From Candidatus Nanohaloarchaea archaeon (GTDB taxonomy: Archaea; Nanohalarchaeota; Nanosalinia; Nanosalinales; Nanosalinaceae): 64,000 bases of DNA. The DNA lies in assembly GCA_013343275.1 (NCBI GenBank), contig CP046106.1:160001-224000 (forward strand), given 5' to 3'. Position numbers and translations under genes: made by a program. Below, in pieces: positions 45,228 to 48,542 of the stretch; within the stretch, counting starts at the first letter, position 1; each line of letters starts with the position of its first letter. Below the pieces are notes generated by a model that was given only the letters and a program-made list of their open reading frames with translations, did no database searches and was not told where the DNA came from.

Positions 45228-45809
45228 GTGTTTACAACAGCAGACCTAACTGAGCGGCAGGAGAAACTGAACAAGACCTTCCTTTTCATGATCAAACTTC
45301 TCGCAGCAGGAGGAATCTTCCATCTAATACTTTACATCTACCCGAACACCTACTCGCTGCAGGTGGGACTGGCCCAGCAAGTAAACTATATAACTGGTTT
45401 AATAGGAATGAACCTCCACCAGCAGGGGATATACCTGATCAGCGACTCGGCACGGTACTACATAACACAGGACTGCCTCGGATGGAAATCAATGGCCATG
45501 TTCACGGGCCTCGTCTTCGCAGGTTCAACAAAGTTCAGAAACCACCTGAAATACGTTATCTCAGGAGTAGGCCTCATCTACCTGGCAAACCTGATTAGAG
45601 TGGTCTCCACGCTCTACCTCGCGGAGAAAGGAATAATATCCTTCGGAGTAATCCACGGAGTAATGTGGAAATGGGGGCTCACAGCACTGGTCCTTGTGAT
45701 GTGGGTGGCGTGGTTCAACTTCGCAGAGATAGAGGAAGAAGCACATGTACTGGAAAGAGAACTGAGAAAGGCGACGTCGAACCTCTCAGAAAATAGAGGA
45801 GAGAAGTAG
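45228..45809 (+). CDS. Archaeosortase/exosortase family membrane protein
   Basis: ITQDCLG (Cys), NLIR (Arg) and a downstream His in a multi-TM protein. Confidence 0.75.
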   Translation: MFTTADLTERQEKLNKTFLFMIKLLAAGGIFHLILYIYPNTYSLQVGLAQQVNYITGLIGMNLHQQGIYLISDSARYYITQDCLGWKSMAMFTGLVFAGSTKFRNHLKYVISGVGLIYLANLIRVVSTLYLAEKGIISFGVIHGVMWKWGLTALVLVMWVAWFNFAEIEEEAHVLERELRKATSNLSENRGEK

Positions 45810-46682
45810 AAAACCTGCGCCGAAGATATCGGTAAGCAGTAGGGCCAGCACGAAAACCGGCATGAAAGGCACGCCTTCTCTTATCTCAAACTCCTCGTCT
45901 TCAATTCCCTCTATATCTTCCTCTGTCAGGCCTACAATACGGTCGTCAAAGCCCTGTCCCGGCGCCGCCACGTCTCCAGGCTCCAGATCGCTGGTGTCGA
46001 CAGTTCTGTAAAACGCCTCGTCCTGCACTACTTCAAGGAAACGGGTAAGCAAGATCATGAAGACAAAAAGCAGGGAGAAAACCAGTGCAGGAACCTTCAA
46101 AGTAGTCATAAACACGGCCAGTACAGCTACAGCAGCTAACTCAAGGCCTATACGTTTTCTATCGTTTTTCAGGCTTTCCGCAGTCTTACTCCACACTTCA
46201 GGGTTTCTGAAGCTCTTGTAGAGGGTGAATCCCATTATGTAGACGAAGCCTGCAAGAGTGATGTTCACGAACAGGTTGATAGGATCGAGCAAGGTCGCTG
46301 TTCCTACGTAAGGAGCGCCGAAACCTAGAGCGCTCATGGCGAATGCATCTGCACCCCCCCACATCCCGTTCCAGTAGGCAGCCCAGCCCATCGCCGAGAA
46401 AACCAGGCCTACCGAAAGAGAGTAGAAAAGAGGCTCCCCTAGAGCTGCCATGAGAGATGCAATCCCGGAGTAGGAGAAAATTGCTGTGAAGCCATTCGTG
46501 GCTATGAAGTCTGTCACCGCGTTCAGCTGCAGAGGGCGGGAGGCTATGAAGTGAAGGCCTATACCTCCCAGGACTGCTGATGCACAGAAGATATCGGGTA
46601 CATCGGTGGTATCCAGGTCGAAAAGTGAGGCTACGAAAAGCATTGAGAAAGTCAGTGCGTGTGACAGAACTGTGAATACCAT
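45786..46682 (-). CDS. A24 family prepilin/preflagellin peptidase
   Basis: ASLFDL...VPD and WGGAD catalytic aspartates; C-terminal G.PF.P. Confidence 0.88.
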   Translation of the reverse strand: MVFTVLSHALTFSMLFVASLFDLDTTDVPDIFCASAVLGGIGLHFIASRPLQLNAVTDFIATNGFTAIFSYSGIASLMAALGEPLFYSLSVGLVFSAMGWAAYWNGMWGGADAFAMSALGFGAPYVGTATLLDPINLFVNITLAGFVYIMGFTLYKSFRNPEVWSKTAESLKNDRKRIGLELAAVAVLAVFMTTLKVPALVFSLLFVFMILLTRFLEVVQDEAFYRTVDTSDLEPGDVAAPGQGFDDRIVGLTEEDIEGIEDEEFEIREGVPFMPVFVLALLLTDIFGAGFLLLSSIF

Positions 46683-46720
46683 GACTTGATTTAAATTCCG
46701 GAAGTTAAAAACAACTTTGT

Positions 46721-47251
46721 GTGAGAAAGAAACAGCGACTTCTAGCTGATCCTGGCGTCAGCACCTTTTTCCAGGCTGTCATGAAGAACTCTCCTGTCGA
46801 ACTGGAGGAACTGTGCAGCAGTATAGGTGTACAGAAGCAGCGTGCCAGGAACTGGATGAATGAACTGGATGAGGAAGACTTGATAACAGTTGAGAGAACT
46901 GAAGGCAGGGTCAAGATCTCGGTAGATGAAGACAACATCGAGGCCCTGAATTCTTTCGCAGCTGATCTACAGAACGATTTCTCCTCAGAACTCCAGAAAT
47001 GGGATGAAAGATTGAGTCAGGCAGCGAACGAAATGGTGCGCATGAAAGACGTACTGGACGATGAAGACGCAGTCCAGGAGTTCAACGACAGGCTGAACGA
47101 ACTTAAGGACTCCAGCGAAGAAATCGATATCCAGGCCCTGAAATCGCTGAGCGAGGTAGAGAGCTTTCTGGGTTACAGCGAGATAGCCCGTGAAGAGATG
47201 CATAAGTTCCACAGAAAGTTCAAGGTACTGGACAGGATAAAAGGCCTTTGA
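46721..47251 (+). CDS. Hypothetical protein with N-terminal winged-helix-like region
   Basis: V.L.EL...G......W...L.E..LI pattern followed by coiled coil. Confidence 0.55.
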   Translation: MRKKQRLLADPGVSTFFQAVMKNSPVELEELCSSIGVQKQRARNWMNELDEEDLITVERTEGRVKISVDEDNIEALNSFAADLQNDFSSELQKWDERLSQAANEMVRMKDVLDDEDAVQEFNDRLNELKDSSEEIDIQALKSLSEVESFLGYSEIAREEMHKFHRKFKVLDRIKGL

Positions 47252-47294
47252 AAGTTAATTTTTAAGTAGGATGTTTTGTAATGTGATTGTATGT

Positions 47295-48542
47295 ATGAAC
47301 TCGGGCAGTCTTTACTCTATGATGACAACAGGTTTCTCCACACACACACACACGGATAGTAAGAAATTAATTTCTGGCTCAAGTAAAGGCCAGTCAGCGA
47401 TCGAGTACTTGACCACTTATGGCTGGATGCTCTTGGTTGTTGCAATTGTTGGAGGCAGTATTTTTACTACAGTTCAGGGTCAGGCACAGCTTGAGACCTC
47501 AGGATTTGAGAATAGCGGTGTTTCACTCGTTGATTCTGGTATGACTGGCAGTTTCTACGCAATGCAGCTACGAAACACGGAAGCTAACCAGATAGAAGTA
47601 CAGAAAATAACTTTGTCAGATAGCAACACCGAAGTTGTTAAAAGGCCTGAAGAAACTATTCCAGCAGCTGGAGAATCCACTTTTCAGTTAATCGGTTTAG
47701 CAGAGTCAAACGCTCAAAACACTGTGAACGTAAAAATAACTTATGATTCAGATGGCCTCAACAACCTGGTAGCAGAAGGTACAATCACAGGCAATCTAGA
47801 ACTCAACACAGAAAAAGCAGAGCCCGGGAACGGACAATGGGAGTTCGTAGACGTCTCCAAAGTCCCGCAGAGAACAGTCGATACCTCTGGGATGTCTGAT
47901 TTCTATATTATGAAGTATGAGGCCTCAGCAAAGTCAAATGTTTCCAATCCTCCTACTTCTGCTACTCCTGTCTCAGTTAAAGGCAATATTCCGTGGGCAC
48001 AGATCAGTCAGAACGAGGCTATACAGGTCTGCCGAGATGCTGGCTACAGTCTTCCGTCTAATAAGCAGTGGCAGGCAGCTACAATGGCAGAGATCGGCAA
48101 CGCGAGTACGCAACCGTTAGGTAATACGAACAGTGGGAGCGATGCTAATGGTAACTCCGGCACTCCCGATCCTACCCAGAATGGTCGTGTCTTGACCGGT
48201 ACTGGCCCAAGTTCCTGGGCGAACCCGATCGGAGTCTACGACCTGAACGGTAATGTCTGGGAATGGACTTCCACAGTTGTTGACCAATCGCATCCGATGC
48301 ATAAAGGAGGGAGCGATGGAAACGTGGCTTCCTGGAACAACAATGGTTATCCTGAGACTCTGGGTAGTGCTAATTCCAGTCTAGGCAGTGATTATTACTG
48401 GTCTTCATCGAACGATAACCGTGCCGTTCGGCGTGGTGGCGACTGGAACGGTGGCGCGGGGGTCGGAGTGTTCTCCATGTCCCTGGGCAACGCTCCGTCG
48501 GACTCGGGCACGGACTTCGGGTTCCGGTGTTCTCTTTCCTGA
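47295..48542 (+). CDS. DGR target: class III signal (pilin-like) N-terminus plus FGE-sulfatase/C-type lectin domain with C-terminal VR
   Basis: KG|QSAIEYLTTYGWMLLVVAIVG; F.IMKYE, LPS..QW, G.YDLNGNVWEW, RGG.W, GFRC; candidate starts 47271, 47295, 47319, 47322. Confidence 0.9.
   Translation: MNSGSLYSMMTTGFSTHTHTDSKKLISGSSKGQSAIEYLTTYGWMLLVVAIVGGSIFTTVQGQAQLETSGFENSGVSLVDSGMTGSFYAMQLRNTEANQIEVQKITLSDSNTEVVKRPEETIPAAGESTFQLIGLAESNAQNTVNVKITYDSDGLNNLVAEGTITGNLELNTEKAEPGNGQWEFVDVSKVPQRTVDTSGMSDFYIMKYEASAKSNVSNPPTSATPVSVKGNIPWAQISQNEAIQVCRDAGYSLPSNKQWQAATMAEIGNASTQPLGNTNSGSDANGNSGTPDPTQNGRVLTGTGPSSWANPIGVYDLNGNVWEWTSTVVDQSHPMHKGGSDGNVASWNNNGYPETLGSANSSLGSDYYWSSSNDNRAVRRGGDWNGGAGVGVFSMSLGNAPSDSGTDFGFRCSLS
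47339..47353 (+). repeat. (CA)7C dinucleotide microsatellite in the DGR target leader
   Basis: CACACACACACACAC, read as THTHT. Confidence 0.9.
48419..48530 (+). repeat. DGR variable repeat (VR)
   Basis: 112-bp ungapped match to 49373-49484 with 17 mismatches, all at TR adenines. Confidence 0.96.

What the first reader, a model, noticed from the sequence alone, without database searches (positions are those of the whole stretch)
45228..48542. The DGR diversifies a pilin-type surface adhesin encoded beside a candidate processing peptidase
Seen: the target begins with a class III signal (KG|QSAIEYLTTYGW plus hydrophobic helix), then a pilin-like beta domain, then an FGE/CLec domain ending in the VR. 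An A24 prepilin peptidase and an archaeosortase-like gene lie within about 2 kb upstream. Known: class III signals are cleaved by A24 peptidases for type IV filament assembly, and CLec VRs form ligand-binding sites. Inference: a hypervariable pilus-displayed adhesin for host recognition or host switching, a cellular counterpart of phage tropism switching.
Basis: partly seen in the sequence, partly recalled or inferred. Interest (0 to 1): 0.82.

Follow-up and report, generated by a model that had tools for sequence, protein, structure and literature searches.

The report
Retroelement-diversified pilin adhesin in a nanohaloarchaeon
A tiny salt-loving symbiotic archaeon carries a mutagenic retroelement that rewrites the tip of a lectin-like domain fused to a copy of its own pilus subunit, so it probably displays a hypervariable adhesin on its pili, although the peptidase gene next door is a housekeeping neighbour and not a dedicated partner.

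Summary
Window 47271-50679 is a complete diversity-generating retroelement (DGR): target, a weak Avd-like ORF, bAvd, TR and RT. VR and TR differ at 17 positions, all TR adenines.

The 423-aa target is a modular pilin. Its KG|QSAIEYL signal, helix and beta domain are 44% identical (E 2e-35) to the 156-aa pilin that follows the ATPase and PilC-like genes of a type IV pilus locus elsewhere in the genome. The N-terminal 33 residues match at 32 positions despite 19 synonymous codon changes. The C-terminal half is an FGE/CLec domain ending in the VR.

The upstream 298-aa protein is an A24 peptidase by transitive evidence: FlaK profile E 4.5e-18, and both catalytic Asp invariant. It is the only A24 candidate in the genome.

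The adjacency is not conserved. Relatives keep the archaeosortase-A24 block without a DGR, and a related cassette sits elsewhere in another genus. The archaeosortase is unrelated to the target, which has no C-terminal anchor.

One unexpected feature is a (CA)7 tract in the leader-coding region. It is unique in the 916-kb genome and enriched in CLec-type pilins.

DGRs with FGE/CLec targets are already published for nanohaloarchaea. I found no print description of the pilin identity.

The parts
45228..45809 (+). Exosortase/archaeosortase-family membrane protein (193 aa). It is a conserved neighbour and not part of the DGR.
   Evidence: TIGR04178 scores 45.7 bits against a cut-off of 23, and PF09721 scores 29.5 against 25.7. 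All 12 other, more specific NCBIfam models listed (exosortase, archaeosortase and related sortase types) fall below their cut-offs. The gene is syntenic in G001 (79% identity) and G021 (45%) without a DGR.
45786..46682 (-). A24 (FlaK/PibD-type) prepilin peptidase candidate, 298 aa, and the only one in the genome. The proposed catalytic residues are D22 and D112 (in WGGAD).
   Evidence: Directly, Pfam gives E 6.9 and the genome search gives 14.5 bits against a cut-off of 26.5. Indirectly, 65 of 74 aligned homologues match PF01478, the homologue profile matches FlaK 3s0x_A at E 4.5e-18, and D22, W108, G109 and D112 are invariant. The protein has five hydrophobic stretches.
46721..47251 (+). 176-aa ORF with weak winged-helix hits and a coiled coil. 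It belongs to the conserved housekeeping block and sits just upstream of the target.
   Evidence: It is 62% identical in G001, next to the A24 gene and without a DGR. Only sub-threshold HTH hits were found.
47271..48542 (+). DGR target: a modular type IV pilin made of leader, KG|Q cleavage site, helix alpha1, pilin beta module, linker and FGE/CLec domain with the VR.
47291..47359 (+). Short out-of-frame ORF (MYELGQSLLYDDNRFLHTHTHG, then stop). It starts at the first ATG of the motif ATGTATGA, runs through the CA tract and stops at TAG 47357-47359. In G022 and L167 the same leader is in frame with the pilin.
47339..47352 (+). (CA)7 dinucleotide tract inside the leader-coding region.
   Evidence: It is the only (CA)n or (TG)n run of 5 or more units in the 915,886-bp genome. 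The repeat count differs among homologous genes: 5, 6, 6 and 7.
47385..47483 (+). Class III signal cleavage motif K39-G40|Q41, followed by the N-terminal hydrophobic helix (33 codons).
   Evidence: 32 of 33 residues are identical to the pilin at G000 620368-620838, while 22 of 99 nt differ: 19 codons differ synonymously and 1 non-synonymously. K, G, Q, S, A, I, E, Y and L are invariant in 15 pilin-family sequences.
47484..47810 (+). Pilin beta module (residues about 72-180).
   Evidence: BLASTP to the locus pilin covers residues 37-179 at 44% identity, E 2e-35. The family profile gives a marginal full-length match to the filament subunit 8fk7_A (E 0.0014) and to designed Ig-like proteins.
47919..48530 (+). 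FGE-sulfatase / C-type-lectin-fold domain (residues 217-420).
   Evidence: PF03781 at E 2.8e-15. The homologue profile matches PDB FGE/SUMF chains, 1y4j_A at 5.4e-09 and 5vf4_A at 9.4e-09.
48419..48530 (+). Variable repeat (VR), the last 38 codons of the target.
   Evidence: 17 of 17 mismatches to the TR lie at TR adenines. It is the only VR-like copy in the genome.
48643..49020 (+). 125-aa ORF, a weak Avd-like four-helix protein and possible second accessory factor.
   Evidence: PF05635 at E 0.0046 and TIGR02436 at E 0.016, both below cut-off. It is 89% identical in the G021 cassette. It is homologous to the ORF at the same position in the DGR of L070 (27% over 83 aa, E 2e-6).
49004..49345 (+). 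bAvd accessory variability determinant (113 aa).
   Evidence: PF22296 at E 2.2e-22. phrog_3206 'Avd protein of DGR' at E 6.9e-26.
49373..49484 (+). Template repeat (TR).
   Evidence: It has 27 adenines and 16 adenine-containing codons, 10 of them AAC or AAT. This allows about 10^13.7 protein variants.
49684..50679 (+). DGR reverse transcriptase (331 aa).
   Evidence: RVT_1 at E 6.2e-25. YMDD and IGTLYSQ are visible in the translation. It is 73% identical to the RT of the G021 cassette.

Best explanation
Window 47271-50679 is a chromosomal DGR of a nanohaloarchaeon with a 916-kb genome. Its single target is a modular type IV pilin.

Shown:
- The DGR is complete: RT, bAvd, a second Avd-like ORF, TR and VR, with adenine-only mismatches between TR and VR.
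- The target consists of a leader, a KG|Q class III motif, a helix and a beta module, all paralogous to the pilin encoded in the pilus locus at G000 617-624 kb, followed by a C-terminal FGE/CLec domain whose last 38 codons are the VR.

Inferred mechanism:
1. The pre-protein inserts into the membrane.
2. The genome's only A24 peptidase (window 45786-46682) cleaves after Gly40.
3. The helix, which selection has kept identical to that of the locus pilin, lets the protein enter the same filament through the ATPase/PilC-like platform, probably as a minor or tip subunit.
4. The 240-residue CLec module is held outward.
5. Mutagenic retrohoming from the TR rewrites up to 14 residue-changing codons (about 10^13.7 variants). 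This gives a population of cells with different binding specificities, most plausibly for surface glycans or proteins of the haloarchaeal host.

The position next to the A24/archaeosortase block results from where a mobile cassette landed. It is not an operon.
For: DGR:
- 17 of 17 VR/TR mismatches are at TR adenines over 112 nt.
- bAvd scores E 2.2e-22 and RVT_1 scores E 6.2e-25.
- The genome holds only one VR.
- Across 22 homologues, mean column entropy is 2.76 bits at the 14 TR-adenine codons and 0.48 bits at the 24 other VR codons.

Pilin identity:
- The target is 44% identical over residues 37-179 (E 2e-35) to the 156-aa protein encoded directly after the ATPase and two PilC/TadBC-like genes at G000 617007-620838. 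Four more class-III-type small genes follow on the other strand.
- The N-terminal 33 residues match at 32 positions, with 19 synonymous and 1 non-synonymous codon differences.
- The KGQSAIEYL motif, including Glu+5, is invariant in 15 family members.
- There is a single N-terminal hydrophobic segment.
- 25 of the 36 other family-f1 genomes searched hold the pilin module.

Peptidase.

Machinery:
- Three ATPase + PilC-like loci are present and no archaellin was found.
- About 16-17 class-III-type candidates cluster at those loci (the selection of candidates is my judgement).

Modularity: the same pilin module is fused to LamG, PKD, beta-propeller, PLD and other domains in many nanohaloarchaeal proteins.
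Against: - No curated class III or pilin model matches the target. PF04021 and TIGR02537 were not found at E up to 10 and 0.1 respectively. The pilin module has no Pfam family.
- No structure could be predicted, and no complex could be predicted. The fold of the beta module rests on a marginal PDB profile hit at E 0.0014.
- The 'locus pilin' is itself called a pilin only from its context and motif.
- There is no expression, cleavage or filament data.
- No same-strain reads were available, so current DGR activity is not shown.
- The conserved first ATG of the leader is out of frame with the pilin in this genome, so expression may be reduced or off.
- The link to the host is pure inference.
Confidence: 0.62

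Rival explanations
1. The class III signal serves only for export and membrane or surface anchoring, as in the class-III-signal sugar-binding proteins of Sulfolobales (recalled, not checked here). On this reading the CLec protein sits on the cell surface as a DGR-varied receptor and is not built into a pilus.
For: Many nanohaloarchaeal proteins carry the same N-terminus on large, unrelated C-terminal domains of up to about 700 aa. Such domains could be hard to fit into a filament. No filament data exist.
Against: The whole pilin, beta module included and not only the signal, is retained. The helix is under the same strong purifying selection as in the locus pilin. Bacterial modular pilins with bulky modules are reported to be pilus subunits (abstracts of PMC8179133 and PMC9934059 seen in the listing).
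Confidence: 0.2
2. The locus is currently silent or decaying. The DGR cassette was acquired horizontally, the target's canonical start is frameshifted by the CA tract, and the VR/TR differences are relics of past activity.
For: The first ATG (47291) reads into a TAG just after the (CA)7 tract. The cassette looks recently transferred: Avd is 94% and orf125 is 89% identical to G021, against 39-78% for the flanking housekeeping genes. No RNA run holds the stretch; this point is reported only under Tried and rejected.
Against: All DGR parts are intact ORFs. An in-frame ATG lies 4 nt after the first one and gives a complete leader. The same frame is used in P0001, P0014, P0020 and P0029. The adenine-only mismatch pattern is clean, with 17 of 17 at TR adenines and no mismatch at any other base between 48419 and 48530.
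Confidence: 0.1
3. The A24 peptidase, the archaeosortase and the DGR target form a dedicated functional gene cluster.
For: They lie within 2 kb of one another in this genome, and the peptidase is the expected processing enzyme.
Against: In G001 the same block has no DGR and carries a LamG-like gene in the slot. In G021 the block has no DGR, and its DGR cassette lies at about 113 kb while its A24 gene lies at about 557 kb. The peptidase is on the opposite strand. It is the only A24 candidate for about 16-17 class III proteins. The target lacks a C-terminal sorting signal.
Confidence: 0.05

Closest known systems
DGR of Candidatus Nanohalobium constans LC1Nh (La Cono et al. 2020, PNAS, PMC7443923; I read section 10 and passages found by term search)
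   Same: It is also a nanohaloarchaeal DGR whose variable proteins belong to the FGE subclass of the CLec fold. The authors propose that it mediates symbiont-host interaction. The named database homologues P0004 and P0006 are 63% identical to this target.
   Different: The main text never uses 'pilin' or 'prepilin' (0 occurrences), and it lists PKD and LamG proteins separately as secreted proteins. The pilin identity, the shared helix, the A24 candidate and the CA tract are not in the main text. The SI (Fig. S12 and Text) could not be opened and may say more. [quoted passage not shown]
Bordetella phage BPP-1 DGR and its Mtd tail-fibre tip (recalled; mentioned in abstracts listed)
   Same: Both use adenine-directed mutagenic retrohoming from a TR into a VR at the C-terminus of a CLec-fold receptor-binding protein, with an Avd and an RT.
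   Different: The BPP-1 target is a phage tail-fibre protein that switches phage tropism. Here the element is chromosomal and cellular, and the CLec domain is fused to a pilin.
[quoted passage not shown]
   Same: In both cases a cellular DGR diversifies a pilus-borne adhesin.
   Different: Those are bacterial type V (chaperone-independent, lipoprotein-derived) pili. That text has no occurrence of 'type IV', 'T4P' or 'DPANN'. Here the carrier is an archaeal type IV pilin with a class III signal.
Modular type IV pilins PilB (vWA module) and PilC (lectin module) of Streptococcus sanguinis (PMC8179133 and PMC9934059; abstracts seen in the listing)
   Same: Both have an N-terminal pilin module with a bulky adhesive module grafted onto its C-terminus, and act as minor subunits of a pilus built mainly of another pilin.
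   Different: Those are bacterial, are not hypervariable and have no retroelement. Here the grafted module is a DGR-diversified CLec domain, and the system is archaeal.
Simple-sequence-repeat phase-variable adhesin genes of bacteria, for example Helicobacter pylori sabA with a repeat tract in the 5' coding region (abstract of PMC2715451 seen in the listing)
   Same: Both have a dinucleotide tract between the start codon and the body of a surface adhesin gene, and the repeat number differs among homologues.
   Different: Slippage is not shown here. The leader has two ATGs 4 nt apart in different frames, so two of the three phases may stay ON. The leader is also expected to be cleaved off. I saw no archaeal precedent in the listing, which showed 12 of 142 papers.

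Membership tests
Diversity-generating retroelement (DGR) | A TR/VR pair whose differences are confined to TR adenines | tested here: met
   Over 112 nt there are 17 mismatches, all 17 at TR adenines.
Diversity-generating retroelement (DGR) | A reverse transcriptase next to the TR | tested here: met
   RVT_1 at E 6.2e-25. No NCBIfam model reached its cut-off; the best was the group II intron RT model at 160.8 bits against 300. The IGxxxSQ and YMDD motifs are visible; that these motifs are typical of DGR RTs is recalled.
Diversity-generating retroelement (DGR) | An Avd accessory protein | tested here: met
   PF22296 bAvd at 80 bits against a cut-off of 40. phrog_3206 at E 6.9e-26.
Diversity-generating retroelement (DGR) | VR at the C-terminus of a CLec/FGE-fold target | tested here: met
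   PF03781 on residues 217-420. The PDB profile matches FGE/SUMF chains.
Diversity-generating retroelement (DGR) | Ongoing mutagenic retrohoming (VR heterogeneity within a population) | not testable with these tools
   No run holds this strain; only contigs of 85-95% relatives were found. Indirectly, entropy across 22 homologues is 2.76 bits at TR-adenine codons and 0.48 bits at other VR codons.
Archaeal type IV pilin / class III signal peptide protein | A short charged leader ending in [KR]-G, then a hydrophobic helix of about 20 residues (Glu at +5 here) | tested here: met
   The sequence reads SSKG|QSAIEYLTTYGWMLLVVAIVGGSIF. The motif is invariant in 15 family members. There is a single N-terminal hydrophobic segment.
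Archaeal type IV pilin / class III signal peptide protein | A match to a curated model (Pfam PF04021 Class_IIIsignal, NCBIfam TIGR02537 arch_flag_Nterm) | tested here: not met
   There is no hit on the target. The only PF04021 hit in the genome is at E 0.218 on a minor-pilin-like gene at 623298-623324.
Archaeal type IV pilin / class III signal peptide protein | Homology to a pilin encoded in a type IV pilus assembly locus | tested here: met
   44% identity, E 2e-35, to the 156-aa gene that directly follows the ATPase and two PilC-like genes. The helix is under purifying selection.
Archaeal type IV pilin / class III signal peptide protein | Pilin fold (helix alpha1 packed on a beta sandwich) | tested here: inconclusive
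The profile hit to the filament subunit 8fk7_A has E 0.0014 over positions 24-133.
Archaeal type IV pilin / class III signal peptide protein | Cleavage by an A24 peptidase and assembly into a filament | not testable with these tools
   This needs N-terminal proteomics of purified pili.
Peptidase family A24 (FlaK/PibD-type prepilin peptidase), for window 45786-46682 | A match to Pfam PF01478 at or above its gathering score | tested here: not met
   hmmscan gives E 6.9 and 7.6 bits. The six-frame genome search gives 14.5 bits against a cut-off of 26.5.
Peptidase family A24 (FlaK/PibD-type prepilin peptidase), for window 45786-46682 | Homology to recognised A24 members and to a solved A24 structure | tested here: met
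   65 of 74 aligned homologues match PF01478 at E up to 0.001. These 74 rows are the query plus 73 of the 150 listed hits. The profile matches FlaK 3s0x_A at E 4.5e-18.
Peptidase family A24 (FlaK/PibD-type prepilin peptidase), for window 45786-46682 | Two catalytic aspartates, the second in a GxGD-like motif, in a polytopic membrane protein | tested here: met
   D22 and D112 (in WGGAD) are invariant in 74 sequences and align with the FlaK motifs. The protein has five hydrophobic stretches. That these are the catalytic residues of FlaK is recalled.
Exosortase/archaeosortase, for window 45228-45809 | The signature domain TIGR04178 | tested here: met
   45.7 bits against a cut-off of 23. PF09721 scores 29.5 against 25.7. 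No more specific NCBIfam model reaches its cut-off.
Exosortase/archaeosortase, for window 45228-45809 | The DGR target carries a C-terminal sorting signal (motif + TM helix + basic tail) that would make it a substrate | tested here: not met
   The target ends ...GFRCSLS with no hydrophobic segment after residue 72.
Simple-sequence-repeat contingency (phase-variable) locus | A slippage-prone tract between the start codon and the gene body, with the repeat number varying among strains and changing the frame | tested here: inconclusive
   The (CA)7 tract is unique in the genome. Counts of 5, 6, 6 and 7 occur in four homologous genes. Leaders occur in two frames among database proteins, for example P0017 against P0020 and P0029. 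No within-population data exist. The two ATGs in different frames may buffer the frame shift.

The most novel reading that the evidence does not exclude
The target combines two independent variation devices.

The first is the DGR, which rewrites the ligand-binding surface.

The second is a slippage-prone (CA)n tract in the part of the gene that encodes the cleaved-off leader. Together with overlapping ATGs in different frames (ATGTATGA), this tract would decide whether and how efficiently the pilin adhesin is made.

If true, this would be a simple-sequence-repeat contingency switch in an archaeon, coupled specifically to DGR-target pilins. A CA-type leader occurs in 9 of 20 CLec-type pilins and in 1 of 87 other pilin fusions. 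An episymbiont could then vary both the presence and the specificity of a pilus-displayed host adhesin.
Probability: 0.3. Interest if true: 0.8.

Novelty: new variant of a known kind. Interest (0 to 1): 0.62.

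Why it matters
DGRs are common in DPANN archaea and CPR bacteria and are widely assumed to serve attachment to hosts. How the variable protein reaches the cell surface, and what it is attached to, has stayed vague.

Here the variable protein is a paralogue of the organism's own pilus subunit. That makes the hypothesis concrete and testable in the few cultivable nanohaloarchaeon-haloarchaeon pairs:
- look for the protein in sheared pili;
- map its N-terminus;
- follow the VR and the CA-tract alleles when the host is changed.

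The analysis also shows that nanohaloarchaea use one conserved pilin module as a carrier for many different adhesive domains.

Pilin-type N-termini recur on CLec proteins of other lineages:
- a Methanosarcinales-labelled MAG (L070) with a complete DGR nearby;
- a CPR bacterium (L060) with a canonical N-methylation motif, though no RT was found in the stretch held.

If the CA tract proves to be a phase switch, it would add repeat-mediated contingency loci to archaeal biology.

Tried and rejected
Structure and complex prediction
- Structure prediction on alignment A2 was not accepted.
- Complex prediction (locus pilin x2 plus the target's pilin module) was not available.
- The protein-atlas search failed twice.
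- No fold evidence beyond sequence profiles could therefore be obtained, and fold search was never used.

Curated class III models
- PF04021 and TIGR02537 do not match the target.
- I do not file the protein under those models.

Sequencing runs
- No RNA holder is listed.
- The four runs that hold part of the stretch share only 0.05-0.11 of the sampled words.
- Their contigs are 85-95% alike and fragmented: no piece spans the stretch, and many pieces end around the TR or VR.
- They come from related organisms in brine metagenomes, not from this strain. They say nothing about VR or CA-tract heterogeneity here.

Metagenome scan
- I scanned metagenome contigs for the leader motif plus CA tract.
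- Only 1 of the 120 stretches returned (L167) is a pilin leader.

DGR cis elements
- No inverted repeat was found after the VR.
- The bacterial promoter and terminator scan was uninformative, with counts no higher than in shuffled sequence.
- There were no Rfam matches in 44000-52000.

Other CLec loci
- I inspected 12 of the 80 loci kept for their N-termini and tested 9 of them for RT and Avd.
- Only L070 and L056 have RT and Avd in the held stretch, and L056 is not pilin-type.
- L044, L049 and L060 therefore cannot be called DGR targets from what I hold.

Rejected readings
- A phage or provirus origin of the cassette is rejected: the flanks are housekeeping genes syntenic with G001.
- The archaeosortase as a processing enzyme of the target is rejected.

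Literature
- Searches found no paper in the held library that describes a DGR target as an archaeal type IV pilin or class III signal protein.
- Paul et al. 2017 (Nat Microbiol) is not held. A citing passage in PMC6642488 says it noted 'putative pilin structures' among DUF1566 targets.
- PMC11661182 lists a 'G-type pilin' domain among rare VR-bearing domains.

Full report
**Setting.** The window is G000:C1:160001-224000 of a single-contig genome of 915,886 bp, 96.5% complete. The proteins are acidic. The closest named homologues come from Candidatus Nanohalobium and 'Nanohaloarchaea archaeon' records. Partial holders of the stretch are brine metagenomes. The organism is therefore a nanohaloarchaeon (DPANN). 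I did not try to identify it further.

**The DGR is real and complete.** On the + strand lie:
- the target (47271-48542, 423 aa);
- a 125-aa ORF (48643-49020);
- bAvd (49004-49345; PF22296 E 2.2e-22, phrog 'Avd protein of DGR' E 6.9e-26);
- the TR (49373-49484);
- an RT (49684-50679; RVT_1 E 6.2e-25).

VR 48419-48530 and the TR align without gaps. All 17 mismatches are at TR adenines. The TR has 16 adenine-containing codons, ten of them AAC or AAT, which allows about 10^13.7 protein variants. The genome contains no second VR.

Across 22 homologues, column entropy is 2.76 bits at the 14 residue-changing TR-adenine codons and 0.48 bits at the other 24 VR codons. This is the pattern expected of DGR-driven diversification in this protein family. 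It does not prove activity in this strain.

**The target is a pilin with a lectin-fold module grafted on.** The C-terminal half (residues 217-420) matches FGE-sulfatase PF03781 at E 2.8e-15. A profile of homologues matches solved FGE/SUMF chains.

The N-terminus reads SSKG|QSAIEYLTTYGWMLLVVAIVGGSIF, and it is the only hydrophobic segment of the protein.

A motif scan of the whole genome found the same N-terminus on a 156-aa protein at G000 620368-620838. That gene directly follows:
- a T2SSE-type ATPase (617007-618515; PF00437 at 142 bits);
- two half-size T2SSF/PilC-like genes (618519-620335).

On the other strand it is followed by four small genes with class-III-like N-termini and a 365-aa ORF.

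BLASTP of the target against this locus pilin gives 44% identity over target residues 37-179, E 2e-35. The homology therefore covers the signal, the helix and the whole globular module.

In the first 33 codons from the Lys before the cleavage site, 32 residues are identical although 22 of 99 nucleotides differ. Nineteen codons differ synonymously and one non-synonymously. This argues against recent gene conversion. It argues for the same strong constraint on both helices, as expected if both are processed by the same peptidase and pack in the same filament core.

KGQSAIEY and the helix are invariant in 15 family members from 13 genomes. The module occurs in 25 of the 36 other genomes of the same family searched with the target.

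There are weak points:
- No curated class III or pilin model matches.
- The fold could not be predicted.
- The only structural hint is a profile match of marginal significance to a 144-aa filament subunit, 8fk7_A (E 0.0014, positions 24-133), and to designed Ig-like proteins.

**The peptidase.** The 298-aa protein at 45786-46682 (-) fails Pfam A24 directly (E 6.9; 14.5 bits against a cut-off of 26.5 in the genome search). It is, however, the only place in the genome that the A24 model touches at all.

A full-library search found 486 homologues. I aligned the query with 73 of the 150 listed hits (74 rows):
- D22, W108, G109, D112 and G251 are invariant.
- 65 of the 74 rows match PF01478.
- The profile matches the solved FlaK (3s0x_A) at E 4.5e-18, with D22 and the WGGAD motif aligned on FlaK's Asp motifs.

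I accept it as a divergent A24 peptidase.

My own FlaFind-like scan lists 51 regex hits. I judge about 16-17 of them to be plausible class III proteins, nearly all at the three ATPase/PilC-like loci (474-483 kb, 620-624 kb, 849-855 kb). No archaellin was found. The peptidase is thus a general housekeeping enzyme for all these substrates.

**The neighbourhood is a coincidence.** G001 (same genus) and G021 (another genus) keep the block HerA-like, TM protein, Hef, DUF460, archaeosortase-like, A24, prefoldin, FtsY. Neither has a DGR there.
- In G001 the slot between the 176-aa ORF and prefoldin holds a 474-aa LamG-like membrane protein.
- G021 has the same DGR cassette (target, orf125, Avd, TR, RT) between glycogen-metabolism genes at about 113 kb, a second full-length target at about 9 kb, and its A24 gene at about 557 kb.
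- Cassette proteins are more alike between G000 and G021 (Avd 94%, orf125 89%, RT 73%) than most flanking housekeeping proteins (39-78%). This suggests horizontal movement of the cassette.

The archaeosortase-family gene (TIGR04178 above its cut-off) has no visible link to the target, which lacks any C-terminal anchor.

**A family of modular pilins.** Database searches with the target returned 146 proteins at E 0.001 or better, and 91 with residues 1-80 alone. In these, the same pilin module precedes FGE/CLec, LamG, PKD, beta-propeller, PLD and other domains. Full-length pilin-CLec proteins were found in only G000 and G021 among the 61 genomes searched.

Pilin-type N-termini also occur on CLec proteins elsewhere:
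- L070, a MAG labelled Methanosarcinales, has RT, a target with a KKCISPVVATALLL-type N-terminus (TIGR02537 at 17.5 bits, below the cut-off of 20), a VR/TR pair of 82 nt, and the same 'small ORF + Avd' pair. Its small ORF is homologous to orf125 (E 2e-6).
- P0036 reaches TIGR02537 (22.8 bits against 20).
- L060, from a Paceibacterota genome, has the bacterial N-methylation motif (PF07963, 23.7 bits against 21.2) in front of a CLec domain. No RT lies in the stretch I hold.

**The CA tract.** CACACACACACACA (47339-47352) lies between the possible start codons and the cleavage site. It is the only (CA)n or (TG)n run of five or more units in the genome.

Upstream is ATGTATGAAC. The first ATG (47291) opens MYELGQSLL..., which stops at a TAG just after the tract. 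The second ATG (47295) is in the pilin frame (MNSGSLYS...).

In two G022 genes (n = 5 and 6) and in metagenome locus L167 (n = 5), the MY[EG]L... frame is the pilin frame.

Among database proteins, both frames of the same conserved DNA occur:
- frame A in P0017, P0045 and P0046;
- frame B in P0001, P0014, P0020 and P0029.

P0017 differs from P0020 and P0029 in exactly this way while sharing the downstream leader.

HT-repeat leaders occur in 9 of 20 CLec-type pilins with a called leader, against 1 of 87 other pilin fusions (Fisher 4e-7; the sequences are related, so this overstates the association). Nine CLec-type entries against one other are called from a Met inside the helix, meaning they have no in-frame ATG upstream.

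In the order, the arrangement is in four genes of 3 of 70 genomes, and these four include both cassette-linked DGR targets.

This pattern is what a slippage-prone contingency tract would leave behind. Slippage itself is not shown, and the two overlapping ATGs may simply make the leader tolerant of frame changes.

**Mechanism proposed.**
1. The pre-protein is exported and inserted into the membrane.
2. The A24 enzyme cleaves after Gly40.
3. The protein is assembled by the 617-624 kb machinery into a filament made mainly of the 156-aa pilin. It probably enters as a minor or tip subunit, because of its 240-residue module.
4. The VR surface is displayed outward.
5. The DGR generates variants, and those that bind the available host are selected.

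Shown: the anatomy, the homologies and the selection pattern. Inferred: cleavage, assembly, display, the ligand and current activity.

**Comparison with what is known.** La Cono et al. 2020 reported a DGR with FGE/CLec variable proteins in a cultivated nanohaloarchaeon and proposed a role in host interaction (PMC7443923; section 10 and found passages).

DGR-diversified pilus adhesins are described for bacterial type V pili (bioRxiv 2024.11.15.621889; abstract and passages). Modular type IV pilins are described for Streptococcus sanguinis (abstracts). Passing mentions of pilin-like DGR targets exist.

I therefore rate this as a new variant of a known kind. The pilin paralogy and the CA tract are the new elements.

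**Limits.**
- No structure prediction, no complex prediction and no reads of this strain were available.
- One key paper and one SI were not readable.

Noticed in passing
window 47291-47359 and 47339-47352; also L016 (G022), L040 (G021), L167: A (CA)7 tract, unique in the genome, lies in the leader-coding region of the DGR target. It is preceded by ATGTATGA, which has two ATGs in different frames. The conserved first ATG runs into a stop right after the tract. Homologues carry 5-7 repeats and use either frame. CA-type (HTHT) leaders are found in 9 of 20 CLec-type pilins and in 1 of 87 other pilin fusions.
   Followed up: partly
window 48643-49020; L040 9252-9647; L070 6954-7325: A second small ORF, weakly Avd-like, sits between the target and Avd. 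It is 89% conserved in the G021 cassette. It is homologous (E 2e-6) to the ORF at the same position in a distant archaeal DGR (L070). It may be a conserved extra accessory protein.
   Followed up: partly
window 47271-50679 compared with L040 (G021:C1:105000-122000): The DGR cassette proteins are more similar between two genera (Avd 94%, orf125 89%) than the flanking housekeeping proteins (39-78%), and the cassette sits in different genomic contexts. This suggests horizontal transfer of the cassette among nanohaloarchaea.
   Followed up: partly
L039 8520-9944 (G001): In the same-genus genome without a DGR, the slot between the 176-aa ORF and prefoldin holds a 474-aa LamG-like protein with an N-terminal membrane segment. 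The site looks like a hotspot for exchangeable surface-protein genes.
   Followed up: no
protein P0011: A full-length pilin-CLec homologue (53% identity, 91% coverage, same KGQSAIEYL N-terminus) is filed in NCBI under Haloplanus salinus on a 2.97-Mb contig. That organism belongs to the haloarchaeal group that hosts nanohaloarchaea. The explanation could be gene transfer, a DGR in the haloarchaeon, or an assembly mix-up.
   Followed up: no
G000:C1:615802-623755 (outside the window): This is a complete type IV pilus locus. It contains an acidic 401-aa ORF, an ATPase, two half-size PilC-like genes, the 156-aa pilin, a 365-aa ORF and four minor-pilin-like genes. Two further ATPase/PilC-like loci lie at about 474-483 kb and 846-855 kb. 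No archaellin was found.
   Followed up: partly
L070 4409-7856; L060 197-1336: A MAG labelled Methanosarcinales has a DGR whose CLec target starts with an archaellin/pilin-type N-terminus. A Paceibacterota genome has a CLec protein behind a canonical bacterial type IV pilin N-methylation motif, but no RT lies in the held stretch. Pilin-borne CLec proteins may be a general theme.
   Followed up: partly
window 44203-45225: A 340-aa protein has an N-terminal DUF460 domain (E 1.2e-32) and a long, highly charged coiled-coil tail. It overlaps the stop of the Hef-like helicase gene and is conserved in the same place in G001 and G021.
   Followed up: no
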